29,426 bases of DNA from a virus. Positions 7,772 through 29,426 of the stretch are shown here, piece after piece. The stretch lies in the UHGV virus genome UHGV-0124752. One strand, written 5' to 3'. Made by a program: the position numbers and the translations under genes. The notes under the pieces were generated by a model that did not search any database, was not told the DNA's origin, and worked only from the letters and a program-made list of their open reading frames with translations. Numbering within the stretch: the first letter of the stretch is position 1; each line of letters begins with the position of its first letter.

Positions 7772-8117
7772 TCTCTGCTCCTGTTGATACGGAAAGGGAA
7801 ACAGGCACACCGTTATTACGCCGCCCGCTCAGCTCCACCACCATTGAACCGTCAAAATGGCTGTTGATGGTGATGGAATCCAGCGTCAGCCGTGGCTCCC
7901 AGCGACTCAGCGCCACATACACTGCCGACATGACCTGCAGGCGTAACGCCGGATTTTGTGGCTGGTCTATCAGTGCCGACAGCAGGGAACCATATTCACG
8001 GCGAGCAATGCGGCTACCCTGCGGCGTCAGCAGAATGTCCCGCACCGACTGGCGCAGATGGTCAATATCAGTAATGGCTTTGCCGCTGGTATTGTTCATC
8101 CCGCTATAAAGCGTCAT
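7758..8117 (-). CDS. W: Baseplate protein W (gp25-like)
   Basis: 119-aa ORF between V and J; size and position match P2 gpW. Confidence 0.8.
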   Translation of the reverse strand: MTLYSGMNNTSGKAITDIDHLRQSVRDILLTPQGSRIARREYGSLLSALIDQPQNPALRLQVMSAVYVALSRWEPRLTLDSITINSHFDGSMVVELSGRRNNGVPVSLSVSTGAENGSD

Positions 8118-8692
8118 ACCGGGCCTCCGGTTGTGTCGCCGCCTTTCAGAACGCCAGTATGCTGATGCGCATCAACCACGATCCCGTTAGAACTCATCGC
8201 TCCGCCGCCCTGGGTAACGCCACCATTGATCACCACTTCGCTGTTAATACGCGTGCGGTCAGCCTCCAGTACAAACTCACTGGTTTTCATGGTGATGTTG
8301 TCAGCGGCCTCAATGACCATTGATTTGATGCCCCTGACATACCAGCGCCCGGTGGCGGGTTCGTATTCAAACCAGCCACCGTCAGGATGTTCTGTCACGC
8401 AGGCGTCCGCCGACGTCGACGGTGGTGCGAACTGATTCGAATAGACAGCGGGCAGCGCAAAGGCGGTTTCCAGATTGCCGCCCAGACTCAGCAGCACCAC
8501 CTGCTCACCTTCCGATGGTCGCCACCATGTGCGGGCATTCCCGGCACGCAGCGTCAGCCAGCTAATCCAGTTGGTTTCAAGCTCGCCCGTTTTCACCCGG
8601 CAAAGCCAGTTTTCCCTGTCCACTTCGGTGACTACCCCTGTGCGAATCAGGTTGGTGATAAGGCGCATGATTTCGGTTAATTGTGCGTTCAT
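8114..8692 (-). CDS. V: Baseplate spike protein V
   Basis: 192-aa ORF, first gene after a late-promoter box, overlapping W by 4 bp. Confidence 0.8.
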   Translation of the reverse strand: MNAQLTEIMRLITNLIRTGVVTEVDRENWLCRVKTGELETNWISWLTLRAGNARTWWRPSEGEQVVLLSLGGNLETAFALPAVYSNQFAPPSTSADACVTEHPDGGWFEYEPATGRWYVRGIKSMVIEAADNITMKTSEFVLEADRTRINSEVVINGGVTQGGGAMSSNGIVVDAHQHTGVLKGGDTTGGPV

Positions 8693-17559: not shown

Positions 17560-18306
17560 TTAGTTTCTATAATTAGAAATATAGTCATCCATTTTAGCCT
17601 GCTCTATGATTCCACTATTTTTAATATACAAAACATTTGCCCAATCAAAATACTCACAAAGAATAACAATCATAGTCAAAAGCTTTTCATCAGTCATATT
17701 TATTAACAGCTCATATTGCTCAGCTTTTTTTTCACTTTCAACTTTATCATCTATCAACTTCACCAAAAGATAAAATCTTCTTACCAAAGAGAAAAAATGA
17801 TCATCAACATCTAAACTTTCCAACCATGCAATGATTCTTTTCTTTTCTATTCCAGCTCTAACCAAGATGCTCAAGTTATCATCAATGAAAGTTATAGCAT
17901 TATTAGATCTATACTCAATAAGTGTAGGTTCTTTGGTCCCCCCCCCTTTACTTTCATCATCATTATCTGCTCCATTACCGATTACAATACGCAATTTATT
18001 ATAATTAGAATCTTGAGATTCAATTAGACAGAAAAACCTCACTTCAAATTTTTTGTAATCTTCAAGTAACTCTTGTCTTTTTATCTCTTGTTTCAATGTT
18101 GAGTTAGACTGCACTTGTAAAGTTACAGAGCGAATCAGCAGGCAAATCGAGATAAAACTTAGTATAGGATTCAGGACCCCACCCATGAAGTCCCCAAATT
18201 GCCCCCAAACATCAGCATCTTGAGTACTTAAGTACCAGGGGCCAAACTTAATACAATAAACCCCCAAAACTATTATTATGAGAGCTAAACAAATTATTTT
18301 TAACAT
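17560..18306 (-). CDS. Cargo protein, unknown function: two N-terminal transmembrane helices plus a cytoplasmic domain
   Basis: 248 aa; hydrophobic helices LKIICLALIIIVLGVYCI and GGVLNPILSFISICLLI; AT-rich codon usage unlike the phage core; start 1 nt after the upstream gene's stop. Confidence 0.7.
   Translation of the reverse strand: MLKIICLALIIIVLGVYCIKFGPWYLSTQDADVWGQFGDFMGGVLNPILSFISICLLIRSVTLQVQSNSTLKQEIKRQELLEDYKKFEVRFFCLIESQDSNYNKLRIVIGNGADNDDESKGGGTKEPTLIEYRSNNAITFIDDNLSILVRAGIEKKRIIAWLESLDVDDHFFSLVRRFYLLVKLIDDKVESEKKAEQYELLINMTDEKLLTMIVILCEYFDWANVLYIKNSGIIEQAKMDDYISNYRN
17938..17946. repeat. Homopolymeric C9 tract (G9 on the coding strand) inside the membrane-protein gene
   Basis: ctttggt ccccccccc tttac; the minus strand reads aaa ggg ggg ggg acc, encoding KGGGT in frame. 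Confidence 0.8.
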
Positions 18307-18307
18307 C

Positions 18308-19126
18308 TTACTGCACCGTATGCACTAAATATTTCACAGTTTCCCCACTGTTAATTATTACCCGACTTACAGTCAGTTCAAGATAAATATAGCCAGCAGT
18401 GGAAGGCGGATTATTTACATGTAAGTTAGCCGAAATCATTCTTTTTTGAGCTGGAATGATGACACGTAAGGGGCTATAAAACCCAAATGCCACCGTATCA
18501 TTTTCGCCCTCAAGAACAAGCCTACCATTGCCAGTGCGAGCATTAAATCTTGTAATATAAGCCCTGATTACTTCAGTCTTTTTTAAAACACGTGATGTGA
18601 ATAAATTTGTTGCAGTAGATGTATCTAATTCAATTACTTTTTTCTTATCATGGGCACGCTGTTTAAAATTTAACTCGATATTATAGTTTTTTTTGAGATT
18701 AATTTCATGCATTCTTTTTAGAGGAGCTCGAATACGACCTATCAACTCATCCTCAATATCCGATAAACCTTTAACTACTTCTTCCGCTTCATTGGAAAGT
18801 TCGCGACTCTCTAAATATAATGATTGCGAAATAAAGAAACTCATCACTTCATTAAATACTGGTTTAGATATTTTGCGAAGTTCTGATACCAGTTCAGCAT
18901 CATTAATAACCAAGTCAAAATTTTGACCATAAGAACCGGTGAAATTCCTCTTGAGTACAGCCCTTGCAGGATTTACATGAGAGCGGCGCTTTATTATTAC
19001 TTTCCTAAGTATAGCCTCCGCCAACAAGCAAGTAACCTCTGCAGTTCCTGCAAGCGTGTCGAGACCGTATTCCATATCTACTTCATCATCGCCGCTTTTG
19101 ATAATAACATCGTAATTAACTCGCAT
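18308..19126 (-). CDS. Cargo protein, unknown function (soluble, 272 aa), first gene of a two-gene operon
   Basis: AT-rich ORF with RBS aaggaaag ahead of the ATG; I recognise no family motif. Confidence 0.7.
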   Translation of the reverse strand: MRVNYDVIIKSGDDEVDMEYGLDTLAGTAEVTCLLAEAILRKVIIKRRSHVNPARAVLKRNFTGSYGQNFDLVINDAELVSELRKISKPVFNEVMSFFISQSLYLESRELSNEAEEVVKGLSDIEDELIGRIRAPLKRMHEINLKKNYNIELNFKQRAHDKKKVIELDTSTATNLFTSRVLKKTEVIRAYITRFNARTGNGRLVLEGENDTVAFGFYSPLRVIIPAQKRMISANLHVNNPPSTAGYIYLELTVSRVIINSGETVKYLVHTVQ

Positions 19127-19290: not shown

Positions 19291-19318
19291 ACGCAAAAGC
19301 CCGCCAGTTCTGGCGGGC
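19291..19318 (-). terminator. Rho-independent terminator for minus-strand transcripts
   Basis: GC-rich hairpin gcccgccag / ctggcgggc followed on the minus strand by TTTT; lies downstream of the DinI-like gene. Confidence 0.5.
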
Positions 19319-19453
19319 CTTAGCAAAAACGATCCTCAAACGATCATGCGATCTCATGCGGCATAGACATGCACTACAGAGCTAACGCCTCGCAAGGGCT
19401 CGTTGTTCAACCTTGCTGACGCCAGAAGCAAGTTCAGACGCCAGCAACGTTTC

Positions 19454-19687
19454 TTAATGCAGCCAGCTGTCGTCTTCCCACACCTTCTGCATAATTTTCA
19501 TCACTTGTTTTCTTTCTTCGTCCAGTTGCAGTCCGGTTAGTTCCACACCGTTAGAGCTACCTTTGCGAATGCGAATTACCGTTTTGGGATACAGGGGGCG
19601 CAGATTGCGGTAAAGCTCGGATTCAAGGGCGTCCAGGGTAGACTGGCTAATCTTCTGCTCTTTATCGATCATTATTTCAATGCGCAT
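19454..19687 (-). CDS. DinI-family protein
   Basis: MRIEIMIDKEQKISQSTLDALESELYRNLRPLYP...KVWEDDSWLH resembles DinI (MRIEVTIAK...ETWESADDWF); start placed at the Met with RBS gaggtg. ORF track gives 19454..19759. Confidence 0.75.
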   Translation of the reverse strand: MRIEIMIDKEQKISQSTLDALESELYRNLRPLYPKTVIRIRKGSSNGVELTGLQLDEERKQVMKIMQKVWEDDSWLH

Positions 19688-19697
19688 AAAAGTCACC

Positions 19698-19886
19698 TCA
19701 GCTGATGACATCCATTGAGCGGTTGTATTCGTGGGTTCTGATTTTTGCCATGAGTTCATCAGTCAATTCAGAAACCCACTGCAGAGCCAGCCCCTTCTCT
19801 TCATCACTACACTCACTAGCCGCTACAAGCTTAAGAAAAAAATCAATGCGCTGGAGCTTCAAAGACTCCAAAAAATAGTCCTGCAT
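19698..19886 (-). CDS. Small protein (62 aa) directly downstream of a LexA box; candidate antirepressor
   Basis: MQDYFLESLKLQRIDFFLKLVAASECSDEEKG...; strong RBS aggagg; start chosen inside ORF-track entry 19698..19988. Confidence 0.5.
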   Translation of the reverse strand: MQDYFLESLKLQRIDFFLKLVAASECSDEEKGLALQWVSELTDELMAKIRTHEYNRSMDVIS

Positions 19887-19928
19887 CTTTCCTCCTATGA
19901 CACCACACGCAATGCTGTATGTATAACC

Positions 19929-19944
19929 ACTGTTTATATTTACA
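19929..19944. promoter_or_regulatory. LexA (SOS) box
   Basis: CTGT-TTATATTT-ACAG matches the CTGT-N8-ACAG consensus with an AT-rich spacer; about 43 bp upstream of the 62-aa ORF. Confidence 0.6.
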
Positions 19945-20039
19945 GTATATAATAATCTTACTGATGTAAAACGTTTTTTTACATTCATCAGCCTGATATA
20001 CCTGGTATTATTAAGAGCACGAATTGTTAACCCGCGTAA

Positions 20040-22454
20040 TTAATACAGGTTCCGCCAATGATCATCTTCCTGCAAACGCTGGTTCCGATAGAAGATACGC
20101 AGGCCTGCTCCTGACGGAATACTGCCTCCGCGAAGGAGTAAATCGACCTCTTTCTCGCTGCCATCAAATCCTCTGGACTTCAGCTCATACACGAGCTGCA
20201 GTCGCTGATGGTCTGTAATTCGCTGTTTGTAGTCTTTACGCCGTTTCGGTTTCACCAGGCATAACCTTGCTGCCAGTTCCCGGCGCTCTTTTTTGCTCAT
20301 ACTGTGCAGGTAATCGTGCAACTCCTTGTCATCCATGCTGGTAATGTCCGTTCTGGGGTCCCCATCAGCTGATTTATCTTTCTCCTGTTGGTTCAAATTT
20401 TCAGCAAGGGGACAGTTATTGCCACGAGTCCAAGGGGCGCAAGCGCCCTGGTCGGCTGCCGCCTCCTGAACGTCAACGGCCTTACGAACCATTTTCCACT
20501 TCACCGCATGAGTGCAGATCTTGCCCTCTGCAATGGGTGACCAGATGCCATAAATACGAATACCGTGATCGCCATATGCGGTCGGTTCTTCGTTGATTTC
20601 ATAAGCAGTTCTGATGAGGTGATATTTGCGGGGAACCAGTACGCCGCCCTGCTTCATGATGTAGGTGGCAAAACAACCAGCATCAGCAGCAGCCAGGATT
20701 GCATCAAGGCGCGGGTTATCCAGTACCGGCGCACCTGCTTTTTTGTCCCCCTGTTGCCTTGCCGCCTGACCAGCCAGCAATCGCAGTTCACGGTAAGCCT
20801 GACGCCCCGGAATGCCAAAGAAGCGGAATTGCTGAACACGATGCAGAGACGCCCAGGCATTAACGTATTCAGCGTTATCACGCAGGGATTTACCCGTTTC
20901 CTTGCTGATCTCGCCAGCCAGACCACGCCCGTCAATGTTCTTACTGATGTATTTCGCGATGTAGCTTGTTGGCGTACCTTTGCGCGGGTTTATCAGCTCA
21001 GACTTAAAGCGTGGTCCCGTGTTATTACCCAGCTCCTCGCGGTCTTCACGAATGGCAAACTTACGCAACAAAGCAGTAATGGTGCGGCGATCTTTTTTGC
21101 GCATAAAACACAACAGGTGCCAGTGAACTGTACCGTCATGATGCGGCTCAGCCACCCGCACGCCATACCAGCGCAATCCGGCTTTGTGCATCGCCTTACG
21201 AAATGCAGCAAACATGCCGACCAGATAATCACTGCTTTGTCTTACCGTCGTATTTGTCCAGGTCGGGTTGGGCCTGCCGTTATTTAGCGTGGAATGGAAA
21301 CGTGACGGACAGGTGATGGTGTAGAAAACGGCGCAGTCACCGCGCATTTCCGCGATAAGCTCCAGACCTTTAACACAGGCCATCATCTCATTGCGGCGAT
21401 GCGCAGGGTTGCTGCTGCTGGCGTTTACCACATCCTCCATGTCCAGCGTGTCGCCGTCTTCGTTCACCAGTTCATGAGAACGGAAAAACTCCAGCGACTT
21501 ACGGCGCTGCTCACGTTTATGCATCACGGCTTCATAGCTGACATAGGGAGATGCTTTTTTGCTGACCAGGCAAACAGCACGCAACTGCTCTTCCCGCCAT
21601 TCGCAACGCATCTTCCATAATTTCCGGTACCACCAATCGGCGCACAACATACGCGCCAGCGAACCCGGAATGAGTTTATAGGGCACGGGTTTACGGCGGT
21701 TTCTTTTCCGGCGGAGTTGCTCAAACGCAGGCGGTATGACATCCAGTCGCAGGGTTTCTGCTGCCACCTTTTCCCATGTCTTGCGGATTTCTTCTGGCTT
21801 AACGTCATCGGTGGCATACAAATCGCCACAAGCTGCATCAAGGCACATGCTCATATGCGCAGCAACAAGGGTGGACAGGCGTTTCACCTGATCCTGACTC
21901 ATTTCAGGTAGGATCAGCAGGCCGTCCAGCCCTTCATGGCTTGCCATAAAGCGAAAAGAAGTGGATAGCTGACTGTCGCGTACATGCTCCAGCCGTTCCA
22001 GACATGGCTTAATCGTCTCACGCAAATAGCGGGAATAAGCCTTTGGCCTGCCAAGGCTGCTGAAGTATTCAATACGTTGCATCAGCGGCCTGCTGATATG
22101 GGAAGGCTGGGCGTTAACGTCTGCCAGAATGACCATGTCCGGGTTAAAACGCTGCTGCTCATGCGCCAACTTTGCCCGGCTAATGAGCTTATCCTGCTCC
22201 ATTTCGCGCTGGACAGGATCACGGGATTCATTAAAGAAATAACGCTCCCAAACCTGATCACTCAGTGCCTCGCGGCGCAGTTGTTCCTGCTCGTTATCGG
22301 CAGCGTACAGAGTGATCAGGTTTGAAAGCGCAGAAACCGGCGCAACTTCCGCCGGGTCCAGATAAGGGTTAATAGCCTTTTTCGGGCTGTTCCATGAGAA
22401 TGCTGCGGCGGCCTCGTTAAAGCCGCTGCAGTTGTTCATATCAGCATGGCTCAT
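20040..22454 (-). CDS. A: Replication initiation protein (rolling-circle type)
   Basis: 804-aa ORF in the early operon, in the position of P2/186 gene A. Confidence 0.85.
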
Positions 22455-25478: not shown

Positions 25479-26048
25479 GTGACCATGAATTTGGAAAAAG
25501 GCGGTCGTGGGGCCATAGAGCGCATGGTTGAAGCCTATGGTTTCAAGACAAGACAAGCTTTGTGTGATCATTTGGGCATTTCTAAAAGCACCTTAGCCAC
25601 GCGCTATATGCGTGATTCATTCCCGGCAGAATGGGTAATCCAATGTGCACTTGAAACCGGCACGTCGCTAGAGTGGCTAACTACTGGGCAAGGTTCAAAA
25701 GAAAGTTCACAAAAAGAAAACACAAAAGAGATCGAAAGGAAGATTTTATCAAGCGGAAAACTACTTCCTGATGGTTACTACATTTTCGACAACAACTTTT
25801 TGCCTGAAAAACTAAAAAAACCTTTTGTTGTGATCGATGGCGCATCAGAGTTTATCTGTGATTCGGATTATGAGGATGTACGTGATGGTAAGTGGATCGT
25901 TGATATTGATGGCGAGGTTGCTATCAGGAATCTGACAAGACTGCCGGGGCGTCGTCTAAATGTCGATGGTGGCAGCAGTTCCTTTGAATGCAAAATAGAT
26001 GAAATTGATATCATAGGAAAAATTAGAAGCGCGATCGTCAATTATTAA
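25479..26048 (+). CDS. cI: Immunity repressor, phage 186 CI type
   Basis: 189 aa; ...EAYGF...[15 protein letters not shown]... N-terminal HTH region and [23 protein letters not shown]-terminal region resemble 186 CI. Confidence 0.8.
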
Positions 26049-26071
26049 AATTAATGTATAAGGAAATAAAT

Positions 26072-26257
26072 ATGTTTTATAAATCTATACATATCCTACT
26101 TATTTGTTTATTTATTACTTTACCTATTACAAGTTTTGCAAAAAATTATCCATGTTCTGGTAAGAAAGGGGGAGTTTCACATTGTACATCTGATGGGAAG
26201 TTCGTTTGCAATGATGGAACGCAAAGCAAGTCAAAGAAAATATGTTCTAAAAACTAA
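26072..26257 (+). CDS. Small secreted cysteine-rich peptide
   Basis: Signal peptide [23 protein letters not shown], then about 38 residues with four Cys; RBS aagga; very AT-rich. Confidence 0.5.
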
Positions 26258-26268
26258 GGTTGCTTCAT

Positions 26269-27600
26269 ATGAATAATGATATGACTTTTGAAAACAGAGA
26301 TGAGTATAATAGAAAAATCATTGCTGAAAAAATAATAAGCTTACTCGAGTCCCCCTTAAAAATATCCCCTATTGTTATCGATGGGGACTGGGGTACCGGT
26401 AAAACCGAATTTTCAAAAAAATTAGCGGCATTGATTGAAAAAAATGAATCTGGGCATAAAGTAGTATATATTGATGCATTTACTGAAGATCATAATGATG
26501 CTCCCATACTTACTATAATGGCTGCAATAGTTGCATTATATCCAGAGAGTGAAAAGAAGGAATTAATATCAAAGGCATTACCAGCATTGAGATTTGGACT
26601 TAAAACTGTACTCAAAGCTGGCGCTGGGTGGATTTTAAAACAAAATGCAGATGATATTGCGGATGAATTCGAAGATGCTATTAAAGATGCGGCTAACTCA
26701 GCTATAGATGGTACTGTAGAAGCACTGCTTGATGATCATATTGAAGCAAAGAAACATTTGCTTGCTCTCAAGGAAGTACTTGCTGAACTAACTAGCGAAA
26801 ATAAAATAACAATTATCATTGACGAACTTGACCGTTGTAAACCAAGCTTTGCCATCTCTATCATCGAAAATATAAAACATGTTTTTGACACTGAAAATCT
26901 TAACTTCTTGTTAGTTGCTAACATCTCACAATTGAAAGCATCAATAAATCATATTTACGGTGCAGGTGTTGACTCAGAAAGATATCTTGATAAATTTATA
27001 AAATTCACTTACAGCCTGCCAGTGACTTTCACTGAAAACAATTACGATAAAATTTTGGCTTCGAACTCTCATTTTAGAATGCTATGTAACGAGTCTGAAA
27101 GACTAAAAGAAATTGGAGAAAGTAGTATTCATATAGTTCAAAAATTTATCGAACTAAAAGGCTTGTCGCTACGGGAAGTTGAAACCTTATCAAGATATCT
27201 AGAAATTTATCAAATTTTATCTCAAAATGAAATCAGCAATAAATTTATACCAGGCTATTGCTGTTATCGAACCCTTGCAGTAATTCTTTATTCGTTTGGT
27301 CGTGAACTGGCCCTTAACTACGTAGAAGATAAAATAGATGCACAATTAATAATTAATTTCTTCGGTGTTAATAGACTCCCATATCAGACAGATCAATATA
27401 ACATCAACATCTACTATTATGCATTATTTGGTATAACTTATAAATATATGCCAGAAGGTTCTCCTTTACTTCCTTCTGAAAACGATGAAAAAAACAGATG
27501 GGCTGAAATAAGTGATTATCATATTTTAAAAGGAAATGCAGGTGTAGAAGACCCTGTTAGAATATTCAAAAACACCTTAAAAGTTTTCTTGCTCCAATGA
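26269..27600 (+). CDS. KAP-family P-loop NTPase
   Basis: Walker A IDGDWGTGKTEF and Walker B IIIDELDRC; AT-rich. ORF track starts at a TTG (26260); ATG 26269 has an RBS. Confidence 0.8.
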   Translation: MNNDMTFENRDEYNRKIIAEKIISLLESPLKISPIVIDGDWGTGKTEFSKKLAALIEKNESGHKVVYIDAFTEDHNDAPILTIMAAIVALYPESEKKELISKALPALRFGLKTVLKAGAGWILKQNADDIADEFEDAIKDAANSAIDGTVEALLDDHIEAKKHLLALKEVLAELTSENKITIIIDELDRCKPSFAISIIENIKHVFDTENLNFLLVANISQLKASINHIYGAGVDSERYLDKFIKFTYSLPVTFTENNYDKILASNSHFRMLCNESERLKEIGESSIHIVQKFIELKGLSLREVETLSRYLEIYQILSQNEISNKFIPGYCCYRTLAVILYSFGRELALNYVEDKIDAQLIINFFGVNRLPYQTDQYNINIYYYALFGITYKYMPEGSPLLPSENDEKNRWAEISDYHILKGNAGVEDPVRIFKNTLKVFLLQ

Positions 27601-27657
27601 AATGTTTGATTGAAGATCTTTAAACATTGACCACTGTTCAAACATACAGTTAAATTT

Positions 27658-27682
27658 AGTCCTCAGACATGAGGACTTTTTT
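27658..27682 (+). terminator. Rho-independent terminator abutting the int start codon
   Basis: Hairpin agtcctc / gaggact followed by TTTTT; the int ATG is at 27683. Confidence 0.55.
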
Positions 27683-28735
27683 ATGGCAGTACGAAAACTC
27701 ACCACAGGAAAATGGCTGTGCGAATGTTATCCCGCCGGACGTAGTGGACGTCGTGTGCGTAAACAATTCGCCACCAAAGGCGAAGCTCTGGCTTTTGAGC
27801 GTCACACGATGGAAGAAACCGAAGCAAAGCCTTGGCTAGGTGAATCAGTGGCTCGTCGAACACTGAAAGACGTGGTTGAGCTATGGTTCAAATTACATGG
27901 TAAATCTCTGACTGCTGGGCAGCATGTCTATGACAAATTGCTGCTGATGGTTGACGCTCTGGGCAATCCTCTTGCAACCGATCTCACCTCTAAAATGTTT
28001 GCCCACTATCGAGATAAACGCCTGACAGGTGAGATCTACTTCAGCGAGAAATGGAAGAAAGGAGCCAGCCCGGTCACCATTAACCTGGAGCAAAGCTATC
28101 TAAGTAGTGTTTTTAGCGAACTATCCCGCCTGGGCGAATGGTCGTATCCAAACCCACTGGAGAACATGCGAAAATTCACCATCGCAGAAAAAGAGATGGC
28201 ATGGCTTACCCATGAGCAGATTGTTGAACTGCTGGCTGATTGCAAACGTCAGGACCCAATTCTGGCACTGGTAGTCAAGATATGCTTAAGCACAGGCGCA
28301 CGCTGGCGAGAAGCAATAAACCTTACCCGATCACAGGTGACTAAATACCGAATTACCTTTGTAAGAACGAAGGGGAAGAAAAACAGAAGCATCCCTATCA
28401 GTAAAGAGCTTTATGAAGAGATCATGGCGCTTGATGGGTTCAATTTCTTCACAGACTGCTATTTTCAATTTTTATCCGTGATGGAAAAAACGTCAATCGT
28501 GCTCCCTCGCGGTCAACTGACACACGTTCTGCGCCATACGTTTGCGGCACATTTCATGATGTCGGGTGGAAATATCCTTGCTTTGCAAAAAATCCTCGGA
28601 CATCACGATATAAAAATGACTATGCGTTACGCTCATCTGGCACCGGATCATCTGGAAACGGCGCTCCGTTTCAATCCTCTGGCAACGCTGCCAAGTGGCG
28701 ACAAAGTGGCGGCAGCGGTTGGCATTACCCCGTAA
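27683..28735 (+). CDS. int: Tyrosine integrase (P2 family)
   Basis: 350 aa with the conserved C-terminal catalytic region (ARWREA, HVLRHTFA, MTMRYAHL with Tyr). Confidence 0.9.
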   Translation: MAVRKLTTGKWLCECYPAGRSGRRVRKQFATKGEALAFERHTMEETEAKPWLGESVARRTLKDVVELWFKLHGKSLTAGQHVYDKLLLMVDALGNPLATDLTSKMFAHYRDKRLTGEIYFSEKWKKGASPVTINLEQSYLSSVFSELSRLGEWSYPNPLENMRKFTIAEKEMAWLTHEQIVELLADCKRQDPILALVVKICLSTGARWREAINLTRSQVTKYRITFVRTKGKKNRSIPISKELYEEIMALDGFNFFTDCYFQFLSVMEKTSIVLPRGQLTHVLRHTFAAHFMMSGGNILALQKILGHHDIKMTMRYAHLAPDHLETALRFNPLATLPSGDKVAAAVGITP

Positions 28736-28839: not shown

Positions 28840-29376
28840 CTACCCTGCAACCCTCTCAACCATCCTCAAAATCTCCTCGCGCGATAGCGGCTTACGGTCG
28901 GTGACAAAATGCAGCGTCATCCCCTCAATAAACGCATCAAGCGCGCGGGCGGTTCCGGGTTCAAACCATTGTTCGAGCGTTTGCTGACTGCGCTGCATCC
29001 AGTTTTGCATTACCGTTTTTAATAGCGGTTTTCGGCTAGCCAGCGCGTAGAGCTGGTACATCAGCTCCATGTTATCCGGCGTTGCAACCTGTGAGCTGTA
29101 GATCATATCGGTGATAGCCTGGCATGCGCCCGGAGCATCACTAACATCGCTAAAAAATGCCTGATATTGCCGGGACATGATCTCAGTAAAACTGCTGAAC
29201 GCCTCCAGTAACAACTCATCAATTCCTGAAAAATAGTAGGTCATCGATCCCAACGGTACCCCGGCAAGGGTAGCAATTTTGCGGTGCGTAACAGCATGTA
29301 TTCCGTAAAGTTTCACCGCCTCCAGCGTGGCCTGGATAATTTTTTCTCGCCGTTGCGGATCGTTAGCGCGACGCAT
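28840..29376 (-). CDS. rcdA: TetR-family transcriptional regulator, probably host chromosome
   Basis: N-terminal TetR HTH ([24 protein letters not shown]); 178 aa from MRRANDPQ; recalled as E. coli YbjK/RcdA-like but not verified. Composition differs from the phage cargo. Confidence 0.7.
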
Positions 29377-29426
29377 GTCATTTCCTCTCTCTGCAATTGT
29401 GTACAAATGTACACAACCTTGCTAAT

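What the first reader, a model, noticed from the sequence alone, without database searches (positions are those of the whole stretch)
19698..19944. SOS-controlled module: LexA box, 62-aa candidate antirepressor, DinI-like gene
A near-consensus LexA box lies about 43 bp upstream of a small ORF with a strong RBS, followed by a DinI-family gene and a terminator. The immunity repressor here is 186-type, and 186 is induced by the LexA-controlled antirepressor Tum, so the 62-aa protein is a candidate short Tum-like antirepressor. That link is an inference and the protein is much shorter than Tum.
Basis: partly seen in the sequence, partly recalled or inferred. Interest (0 to 1): 0.5.

Follow-up and report, generated by a model that had tools for sequence, protein, structure and literature searches.

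The report
Known SOS-controlled tumA-tumB prophage switch

Summary
On the minus strand, just after replication gene A, there is a promoter (TTTACA, 17 nt, TACTGT). Its -10 lies inside a LexA box (TACTGTAAATATAAACAGTG, 19928-19947). Then come a 62-aa ORF with an AGGAGG ribosome-binding site (19698-19886), a 77-aa DinI-family gene 10 nt later (19454-19687), and a terminator. The repressor is 186-type.

The 62-aa protein is a remote homologue of the N-terminal half of 186 Tum. Phage PSP3 annotates the same split arrangement as tumA/tumB. Fels-2 carries a 98%-identical copy. The module is near-identical to that of E. coli HS prophage DuoHS, with one codon difference in the ORF. There, a published in-frame deletion of exactly this ORF ('tum', ECHS_RS04495), and a lexA(Ind-) allele, each abolished mitomycin-C induction.

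Binding of this subfamily to CI remains inferred, and so does the role of the DinI-like partner.

Small additions from this work:
- The box and promoter are conserved across 35 relatives.
- A second degenerate LexA-like half-site is specific to this subtype.
- The antirepressor type tracks the CI type in 87 of 88 loci, yet is better conserved than CI.
- The DinI gene is often absent.

Interest is low.

The parts
19965..19970 (-). -35 hexamer TTTACA of the p95-like SOS promoter
   Evidence: Read. It lies 17 nt upstream of TACTGT. TTTACA sits at this spacing in 28 of 35 distinct relatives. The layout matches the annotated p95 of phage 186, which has TTCACA, 18 nt, then TACTGT.
19928..19947 (-). 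LexA box TACTGTAAATATAAACAGTG; its first six bases TACTGT serve as the -10 hexamer
   Evidence: The core CTGT-N8-ACAG is found at 19930-19945. The core is perfect in 28 of 35 relatives of this type and 7 of 8 in six more. It is perfect in 70 of 71 relatives of the 186 type. The box is identical in DuoHS and Fels-2.
19915..19930 (-). Possible second, degenerate LexA box GTGGTTATACATACAG, overlapping the first by one base
   Evidence: The right half ACAG is perfect in 26 of 35 relatives of this type while the 8-nt spacer varies. The left half usually matches 2 of 4. The element is absent from the 186 type and from PSP3. Whether it functions is inferred only.
19891..19896 (-). Ribosome-binding site AGGAGG, 4 nt before the ATG
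   Evidence: Read. A GGAGG-type motif occupies the same place in nearly all of the 35 relatives.
19698..19886 (-). tumA (called 'tum' in DuoHS), 62 aa: the antirepressor, homologous to the N-terminal domain of 186 Tum
   Evidence: Homology. Coding signature. It equals ECHS_RS04495 with one nucleotide difference. The AlphaFold model is a two-helix hairpin with pLDDT 89.
19454..19687 (-). tumB, 77 aa, DinI-family protein, with its own GAGGTGA ribosome-binding site overlapping the tumA stop codon
   Evidence: Pfam DinI 6.6e-23. It is 41% identical to residues 71-145 of 186 Tum, 78% identical to PSP3 TumB, and 100% identical to the DuoHS and Fels-2 copies.
19413..19447 (-). Stem-loop just after the tumB stop codon, with no U-run
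   Evidence: RNA fold. The same sequence directly follows tumA in relatives that lack tumB (for example L015, L025 and L037). It may correspond to the partial terminator t95a of 186; that is an inference.
19291..19319 (-). Intrinsic terminator GCCCGCCAG-AA-CTGGCGGGC followed by TTTTGCGT
   Evidence: Sequence and fold.
25479..26048 (+). 186-type CI immunity repressor, the presumed target of TumA
   Evidence: Pfam Phage_CI_repr 3.1e-33 and Phage_CI_C 6.2e-29. CI type co-varies with TumA type in 87 of 88 loci.
20040..22454 (-). Replication gene A (804 aa), immediately upstream; it fixes the module at the same genome position as tum in 186, PSP3, Fels-2 and DuoHS
   Evidence: ORF.

Best explanation
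The locus is the SOS operon of a Fels-2/DuoHS-type member of the P2 family (Peduoviridae), integrated next to rcdA in E. coli.

Proposed mechanism, step by step:
1. In a lysogen, host LexA sits on a box that contains the -10 hexamer of the promoter and keeps the operon off.
2. DNA damage activates RecA, LexA cleaves itself, and a bicistronic tumA-tumB transcript is made.
3. TumA, a 62-residue two-helix hairpin homologous to the N-terminal half of 186 Tum, binds the 186-type CI repressor and stops it from holding the lytic promoter. The prophage then enters lytic growth.
4. TumB, a DinI-family protein equivalent to the C-terminal half of 186 Tum, is an accessory that probably damps RecA filament activity. 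It is not needed for the switch itself.

What is shown by published genetics on a near-identical module: induction needs this ORF and a cleavable LexA.

What is shown here:
- the anatomy of the locus;
- homology of the ORF to the Tum N-terminal domain;
- conservation of the box and promoter;
- co-variation of TumA type with CI type.

What is inferred: LexA occupancy of the box, direct TumA-CI binding in this subfamily, and the role of TumB.
For: Anatomy.

Homology of the ORF to the Tum N-terminal domain:
- cross-hits to phrog_698, phrog_8554 and phrog_1993 from both proteins, in register;
- hhalign E=1.7e-4;
- a three-type alignment with an invariant Cys26 and Ala34.

Annotation and literature:
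- The 186 record annotates p95, a LexA site overlapping the -10, and Tum as 'expression repressed by LexA; inhibits CI DNA binding'.
- PSP3 annotates tumA and tumB.
- Lemire 2011 describes split tum in Fels-2 and PSP3, with the antirepressor in the upstream gene.
- Lavigne 2009 states that 186, PSP3, Fels-2 and SopEphi are UV-inducible because of tum.

Genetics in DuoHS:
- Delta-tum (ECHS_RS04495) and lexA(Ind-) do not lyse or form viral foci after mitomycin C.
- The deletion primers match the window exactly.
- The promoter, box and RBS are identical between the window and DuoHS, and the ORF differs by one base.

Comparative data:
- Box core perfect in 28 of 35 relatives and TTTACA at the -35 in 28 of 35.
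- Purifying selection on the ORF.
- TumA type matches CI type in 87 of 88 non-redundant loci.
- tumB is absent next to tumA in 13 of 36 loci of this type.
Against: - No experiment on this exact sequence.
- The DuoHS paper reports no complementation of Delta-tum: the word 'complement' occurs 0 times in its text. A polar effect on tumB or on downstream genes is therefore not formally excluded.
- Direct binding to CI and loss of operator binding have been shown only for 186 Tum. That protein is about 20% identical in this domain.
- For PSP3 the evidence is a personal communication cited second-hand.
- The hhalign probability is only 49%, because both alignments have little diversity.
- The consensus promoter scan found no promoter here. 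This is because TACTGT matches TATAAT at only 3 of 6 positions.
- One relative, L027 from Pantoea stewartii, pairs this TumA type with a 186-like CI.
Confidence: 0.88

Rival explanations
1. The 62-aa ORF is only the wreck of a 186-type fused tum gene broken by a nonsense or frameshift mutation. On this view the prophage is non-inducible, or is induced through the DinI-like product.
For: 186 has a single 146-aa Tum. 60 of 81 loci of the 186 type carry the fused 146-aa form. [quoted passage not shown]
Against: - The two genes are separated by 10 nt, and tumB has its own ribosome-binding site.
- The 62-aa length is kept in 31 of 36 loci across many genera, with third-position-biased substitutions.
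- No fused form of this subtype was seen (0 of 36).
- A DuoHS prophage with this arrangement is inducible, and induction depends on the ORF.
- The DinI part of 186 Tum alone is annotated only as a modulator.
Confidence: 0.03
2. TumA is needed for induction but does not act by binding CI. It might instead act on LexA or RecA, on the Apl/Cox-like excisionase-repressor, or on CII.
For: CI binding has never been tested for this subfamily. TumA is much better conserved than the CI proteins it travels with: mean identity 82% for TumA, against 60% for the CI N-terminal domain and 38% for the C-terminal domain. One locus pairs it with a 186-like CI. The DuoHS paper says only 'inhibiting pro-lysogenic regulators'.
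Against: It is homologous to the domain of 186 Tum whose record says 'inhibits CI DNA binding'. The SOS reporter was still induced in Delta-tum cells, so TumA is not needed for the SOS response itself. TumA type and CI type match in 87 of 88 loci.
Confidence: 0.07
3. The CTGT-N8-ACAG match is fortuitous, and the operon is controlled by something other than LexA.
For: A second core match in the window, at 27634-27649, has no obvious function. Shuffles give 0.3 matches per window, and 5 of 100 shuffles reach 2 or more.
Against: The box sits exactly on the -10, as in 186 p95. It is conserved while its spacer varies in 28 of 35 plus 70 of 71 relatives. lexA(Ind-) blocks DuoHS induction. The title of Bunny 2002 attributes lethality of lexA null mutants to Fels-2 (reference list).
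Confidence: 0.02

Closest known systems
'tum' of E. coli HS prophage DuoHS (ECHS_RS04495), with the DinI-like gene ECHS_RS04500
   Same: Same genes in the same order, after gene A. The promoter, LexA box and RBS are identical. The ORF differs by one nucleotide (T51S). TumB is 100% identical. Both prophages sit next to rcdA. DuoHS 'tum' is shown genetically to be required for mitomycin-C induction.
   Different: CI is only 71% identical overall: 96% in the N-terminal domain and 56% in the C-terminal domain. The cargo genes downstream of tumB differ. The window also has a KAP NTPase inserted between cI and int.
Fels-2 (Salmonella LT2) STM2728 with STM2726.1
   Same: The 62-aa protein is 98% identical, TumB is 100% identical and the LexA box core is identical. 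The literature describes this arrangement as a split tum.
   Different: The host is Salmonella. Gene A is 89% identical. STM2728 is still labelled 'hypothetical protein' in the record.
PSP3 tumA/tumB
   Same: A two-gene split with a LexA box on the -10, tumA of 60 aa followed by tumB of 77 aa. TumB is 78% identical. The record says tumA is for 'UV induction of prophage'.
   Different: TumA belongs to a different sequence subtype, about 20% identical. PSP3 has a single LexA box and a short leader of 38 nt, against 59 nt here. The intergenic gap is 3 nt, against 10 nt here.
Tum of coliphage 186
   Same: The genome position is the same, and so is the promoter logic of p95 with the LexA box over the -10 TACTGT. 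The N-terminal domain is homologous to TumA and the C-terminal DinI domain is 41% identical to TumB. The CI repressor is of the same type.
   Different: In 186 the two domains are fused into one 146-aa protein, with internal starts that also yield the DinI part alone. Here they are two genes. The antirepressor domains are too diverged for BLASTP to detect. 186 CI is 35% identical.
Gifsy-prophage dinI-gfoA/gftA operons (Salmonella)
   Same: They work alike: a LexA-repressed operon encodes a small antirepressor plus a DinI homologue, and the antirepressor binds a non-cleavable repressor.
   Different: The gene order is reversed, with dinI first. The repressor family is different. Homology between GfoA/GftA and TumA was not tested here.
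Double overlapping SOS boxes of colicin promoters (from my own knowledge, not tested here)
   Same: Two 16-nt LexA boxes overlap by one or two bases and have weaker inner half-sites. This resembles CTGT-N8-ACAG followed by GTGG-N8-ACAG here.
   Different: The second box here has only 2 of 4 matches in its left half. LexA binding to it is untested.

Membership tests
Tum/TumA antirepressor family of 186-like P2-family phages | Sequence homology to the N-terminal (non-DinI) domain of 186 Tum | tested here: met
   Both proteins hit phrog_698, phrog_8554 and phrog_1993 in the same register. hhalign gives E=1.7e-4 over residues 2-43. BLASTP alone is negative.
Tum/TumA antirepressor family of 186-like P2-family phages | First gene of an operon immediately downstream of replication gene A, with a LexA box overlapping the -10 of its promoter | tested here: met
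Tum/TumA antirepressor family of 186-like P2-family phages | Resides in a phage whose immunity repressor is the 186-type CI (Phage_CI_repr plus Phage_CI_C) rather than P2 C | tested here: met
   TumA type and CI type match in 87 of 88 loci.
Tum/TumA antirepressor family of 186-like P2-family phages | Required for SOS (UV or mitomycin C) induction of the prophage | not testable with these tools
   Published for the DuoHS copy, which differs by one residue: Delta-tum does not lyse (identity of the gene). No complementation was reported.
Tum/TumA antirepressor family of 186-like P2-family phages | Binds CI and prevents operator binding | not testable with these tools
   Stated for 186 Tum in the record and in Lemire 2011.
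DinI family (Pfam PF06183), for the downstream 77-aa gene | Match to the DinI profile above the curated cut-off | tested here: met
   81.3 bits against a cut-off of 24.2, E=6.6e-23, covering 63 of 63 profile positions. It matches phrog_189 at positions 71-148.
DinI family (Pfam PF06183), for the downstream 77-aa gene | Binds RecA filaments and modulates the SOS response | not testable with these tools
   Known for E. coli DinI, and stated as 'thought to'. No data exist for TumB.
LexA (SOS) regulon of Enterobacteriaceae | Operator CTGT-N8-ACAG close to the consensus TACTGTATATATATACAGTA, positioned to occlude the promoter | tested here: met
   17 of 20 positions match and the core is perfect. 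The box covers the -10 and is conserved in relatives.
LexA (SOS) regulon of Enterobacteriaceae | LexA binding, and derepression on DNA damage | not testable with these tools
   The evidence is indirect: lexA(Ind-) blocks DuoHS induction. This does not show that the block acts through this box.

The most novel reading that the evidence does not exclude
The Fels-2/DuoHS-type TumA may be a broad-specificity antirepressor.

It is 65-100% identical across prophages whose CI repressors are only 34-71% identical. Within this type the mean identities are 82% for TumA, 60% for the CI N-terminal domain and 38% for the C-terminal domain. It would therefore recognise a conserved surface of CI, most plausibly in the N-terminal DNA-binding domain.

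One TumA could then cross-induce co-resident P2-family prophages of different immunity, as the Gifsy antirepressors do.

Its promoter also carries a second, overlapping LexA half-site that the 186 and PSP3 types lack. This would give tighter or cooperative repression.
Probability: 0.3. Interest if true: 0.4.

Novelty: already known. Interest (0 to 1): 0.15.

Why it matters
The finding matters mostly as a check on annotation.

- The gene that decides whether these very common prophages are SOS-inducible is still labelled 'hypothetical protein' in RefSeq, in Fels-2 and in most phage records. This stretch (the module plus the end of gene A) matches 1144 of 5426 complete E. coli genomes, covers at least 80% of the query in 730, and is also found in Klebsiella, Salmonella, Citrobacter, Enterobacter and Pantoea.
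- Some records label it 'levan regulatory protein', or extend it to a false 96-aa ORF.
- Recognising it as tumA allows inducibility of P2-family prophages to be predicted from sequence.
- The biology itself is established: a LexA-controlled antirepressor split from its DinI partner.

Tried and rejected
- BLASTP of the 62-aa protein against 186 Tum found nothing. Homology appeared only with profiles.
- Pfam has no family for the ORF.
- The consensus promoter and terminator scan found neither the promoter nor the main terminator. Both were read by eye and by folding.
- I tried to co-fold CI and TumA as a linker fusion with a paired alignment.
- Foldseek of the TumA model against the PDB gave only generic helical hairpins, with no hit at E<=0.001.
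- I tested whether TumA type tracks the CI N-terminal domain rather than the C-terminal domain. Both track equally (87 of 88 by nearest neighbour), so the target domain cannot be assigned.
- I first thought from the 50%-identity cluster representatives that the fused 186 form was rare: only 2 of 150 listed clusters carry DinI. A sample of viral contigs showed 60 of 81 loci of the 186 type are fused. 'Rare' therefore holds only at the level of clusters.
- Shearwin 1998 and Bunny 2002 are not held in the library. Their content is cited second-hand through.
- A search for 'tumA/tumB' returned only irrelevant papers.

Full report
WHAT IS THERE

The window is a P2-family prophage with a 186-type control region.
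- It has a CI repressor carrying Phage_CI_repr and Phage_CI_C domains (25479-26048), a CII (CP76) gene and a Cox/Apl-like gene.
- It also has a Dam methylase, an 804-aa replication protein A (20040-22454, minus strand), an integrase, and host rcdA at the right end.

Reading the minus strand downstream of gene A gives the following elements in order:
- TTTACA (19965-19970);
- a 17-nt spacer;
- TACTGT, which opens the 20-mer TACTGTAAATATAAACAGTG (19928-19947);
- AGGAGG (19891-19896);
- ATG at 19886 and a 62-codon ORF ending at 19698;
- 10 nt containing GAGGTGA;
- a 77-codon ORF (19454-19687);
- a strong stem-loop without a U-run (about 19413-19447);
- a canonical terminator (about 19291-19319).

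IS IT MORE THAN CHANCE?

The LexA core CTGT-N8-ACAG occurs twice in the window, against 0.30 expected. The copy at 19930-19945 lies exactly over the -10 hexamer, as in the annotated p95 promoter of phage 186.

I collected 32 genomic loci that encode relatives of the ORF, plus phage records. Among 35 distinct upstream regions of this subtype:
- the core is perfect in 28 and matches 7 of 8 positions in six more;
- the 8-nt spacer varies;
- TTTACA sits 17 nt upstream in 28.

The ORF is a real gene.
- It is 62 aa in 31 of 36 loci.
- Differences from the window fall 244/94/608 by codon position.
- The GGAGG motif is kept in nearly all loci.
- 19 of 35 loci have in-frame stops upstream. The 96-aa ORF listed mechanically, and annotated in some databases, is therefore an artefact that runs through the promoter.

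The downstream gene is a clear DinI-family member.

WHAT IS IT?

BLASTP sees no similarity between the 62-aa protein and 186 Tum. Profile methods do.
- The ORF hits phrog_698 (3.6e-38), phrog_8554 (2.4e-8) and phrog_1993 (2.2e-3).
- Residues 1-70 of 186 Tum hit the same three families at 6.7e-6, 3.3e-12 and 2e-23, over the same profile positions.
- hhalign of alignments of the two subtypes gives E=1.7e-4 for residues 2-43 against 2-43, at 49% probability because both alignments are shallow.
- A joint alignment with PSP3 TumA has an invariant Cys26 and Ala34.
- The DinI-like protein is 41% identical to Tum residues 71-145.

So the two ORFs together equal 186 Tum, cut between its two domains.

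This is already on record.
- The PSP3 genome annotates tumA ('similar to 5' end 186 tum; UV induction of prophage') and tumB ('similar to dinI and 3' end of 186 tum').
- Lemire et al. [quoted passage not shown] - Lavigne et al. 2009 (PMC2771037) state that 186, PSP3, Fels-2 and SopEphi are UV-inducible because of tum.
- Fels-2 STM2728 is 98% identical to the window's ORF, and the SopEphi copy is 89% identical.

DIRECT GENETICS ON THE SAME MODULE

[quoted passage not shown] It also made a lexA(Ind-) G85D allele. Neither strain lysed or formed viral foci after mitomycin C. The SOS reporter still fired in the Delta-tum strain.

The evidence that this is the same gene is as follows.
- ECHS_RS04495 is a 62-aa 'hypothetical protein' followed by a DinI-like gene.
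- The junction primers...ATAGGAGGAAAGATG and TGAGGTGACTTTTATGCGCATTG, occur once each in the window, exactly at the ORF's start and stop.
- From the -35 element to the tumB stop codon, the window and DuoHS differ at nine positions: three in the leader between the LexA box and the RBS, one in the ORF, and five, all silent, in tumB.
- Both prophages sit next to rcdA.

The remaining gaps are these:
- no complementation was reported;
- sufficiency of TumA has not been shown in what I could read;
- CI binding is documented only for 186 Tum.

MECHANISM

The most likely mechanism runs as follows.
1. LexA occludes the -10 hexamer.
2. DNA damage removes LexA.
3. The tumA-tumB transcript is made.
4. TumA binds CI and releases the lytic promoter.
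5. TumB (DinI-like) modulates RecA and the SOS response.

TumA is predicted with confidence to be a two-helix hairpin (helices 2-23 and 28-61, pLDDT 89). The conserved Cys lies in the turn. The fold has no informative structural neighbours.

WHAT THE COMPARATIVE DATA ADD

(a) The DinI partner is dispensable in evolution. tumB is missing next to tumA in 13 of 36 loci of this subtype. In some of these loci the post-tumB stem-loop directly follows tumA. Among loci of the 186 subtype, 21 of 81 have a stand-alone 63-64-aa TumA and 60 have the fused 146-aa protein. At the level of 50%-identity clusters, nearly all of the 152 hits are 44-100 aa and only two carry DinI.

(b) TumA subtype tracks CI subtype in 87 of 88 non-redundant loci, which supports CI as the partner. 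Within this subtype, however, TumA is better conserved (mean 82%) than the CI N-terminal domain (60%) or C-terminal domain (38%). This hints at a conserved docking surface and possible cross-immunity activity. The data do not say which CI domain is targeted.

(c) This subtype has a longer leader that contains a second 16-mer, overlapping the first box by one base. Its right half ACAG is perfect in 26 of 35 loci and its left half is weak. The 186 and PSP3 promoters lack it. It may be a second, cooperative LexA site. This is untested.

VERDICT

The feature is already known and has been genetically tested in a near-identical prophage, although public records still label it poorly. Interest is low. 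The open points are biochemical: CI binding, specificity, the role of TumB, and the possible double operator.

Noticed in passing
window 19915-19930 (minus strand): A second LexA-like 16-mer, GTGGTTATACATACAG, overlaps the main box by one base. Its ACAG half is perfect in 26 of 35 relatives of this subtype while its spacer varies. It is absent from the 186-type and PSP3 promoters, which have a shorter leader. It may be a cooperative double operator.
   Followed up: partly
window 26054-27600 (plus strand): A 67-aa ORF and a 446-aa KAP-family P-loop NTPase lie between cI and int. The NTPase hits Pfam KAP_NTPase at 3.8e-51 and the PADLOC candidate defence family PDC-S20 at 1.1e-171. E. coli HS has only a 63-aa hypothetical gene at this position. 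This looks like a defence-type cargo insertion.
   Followed up: partly
window 27634-27682 (plus strand): The only other CTGT-N8-ACAG in the window (CTGTTCAAACATACAG, 14 of 20 to the consensus) lies after the KAP NTPase stop codon. It is followed at once by a hairpin plus T-run (AGTCCTCAGACATGAGGACTTTTTT) that ends at the int ATG at 27683. It is probably a chance match, but its position just before int is odd.
   Followed up: no
window 17560-19126 (minus strand): Two cargo ORFs of 272 aa and 248 aa lie between the tumB terminator and the portal gene. They match only PHROGs of unknown function (phrog_13337, phrog_8999). The 248-aa protein has a hydrophobic N-terminus and a weak ZorB-like hit (3.3e-4). 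DuoHS, Fels-2 and vB_EcoM-813R9 carry different genes at this spot, so it is a variable cargo site.
   Followed up: partly
L027 (Pantoea stewartii ATCC 8199, NZ_CP046558.1), tumA at 8001-8189: This is the one locus of 88 in which the Fels-2-type TumA (84% identical) travels with a 186-like CI. The CI N-terminal domain is 31% identical to the window's, and its nearest neighbours are 186-type. Its LexA core is also imperfect, at 7 of 8. It may be a mismatched recombinant or a sign of broad TumA specificity.
   Followed up: no
L011, L015, L021, L025, L028-L035, L037 (tumA at about 8001-8189 in each): These relatives have tumA but no adjacent DinI-like gene. In L015, L025 and L037 the stem-loop that follows tumB in the window comes directly after the tumA stop codon, as if tumB had been cleanly deleted.
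   Followed up: partly
window 19698-19988 (minus strand) and database entries P0005, P0007-P0009, P0018: Public records often extend this gene to 84-106 aa by starting upstream, through the promoter and the LexA box. Some name it 'levan regulatory protein'. RefSeq and Fels-2 call it 'hypothetical protein'. All of these are annotation errors or gaps for a gene with a known role.
   Followed up: yes
window 28840-29406 (minus strand): The right flank encodes RcdA, a TetR-family regulator 99% identical to E. coli HS RcdA. The prophage therefore occupies the same attachment site as DuoHS. An 801-bp stretch holding the module and the end of gene A matches 1144 of 5426 complete E. coli genomes, BL21 derivatives among them.
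   Followed up: yes
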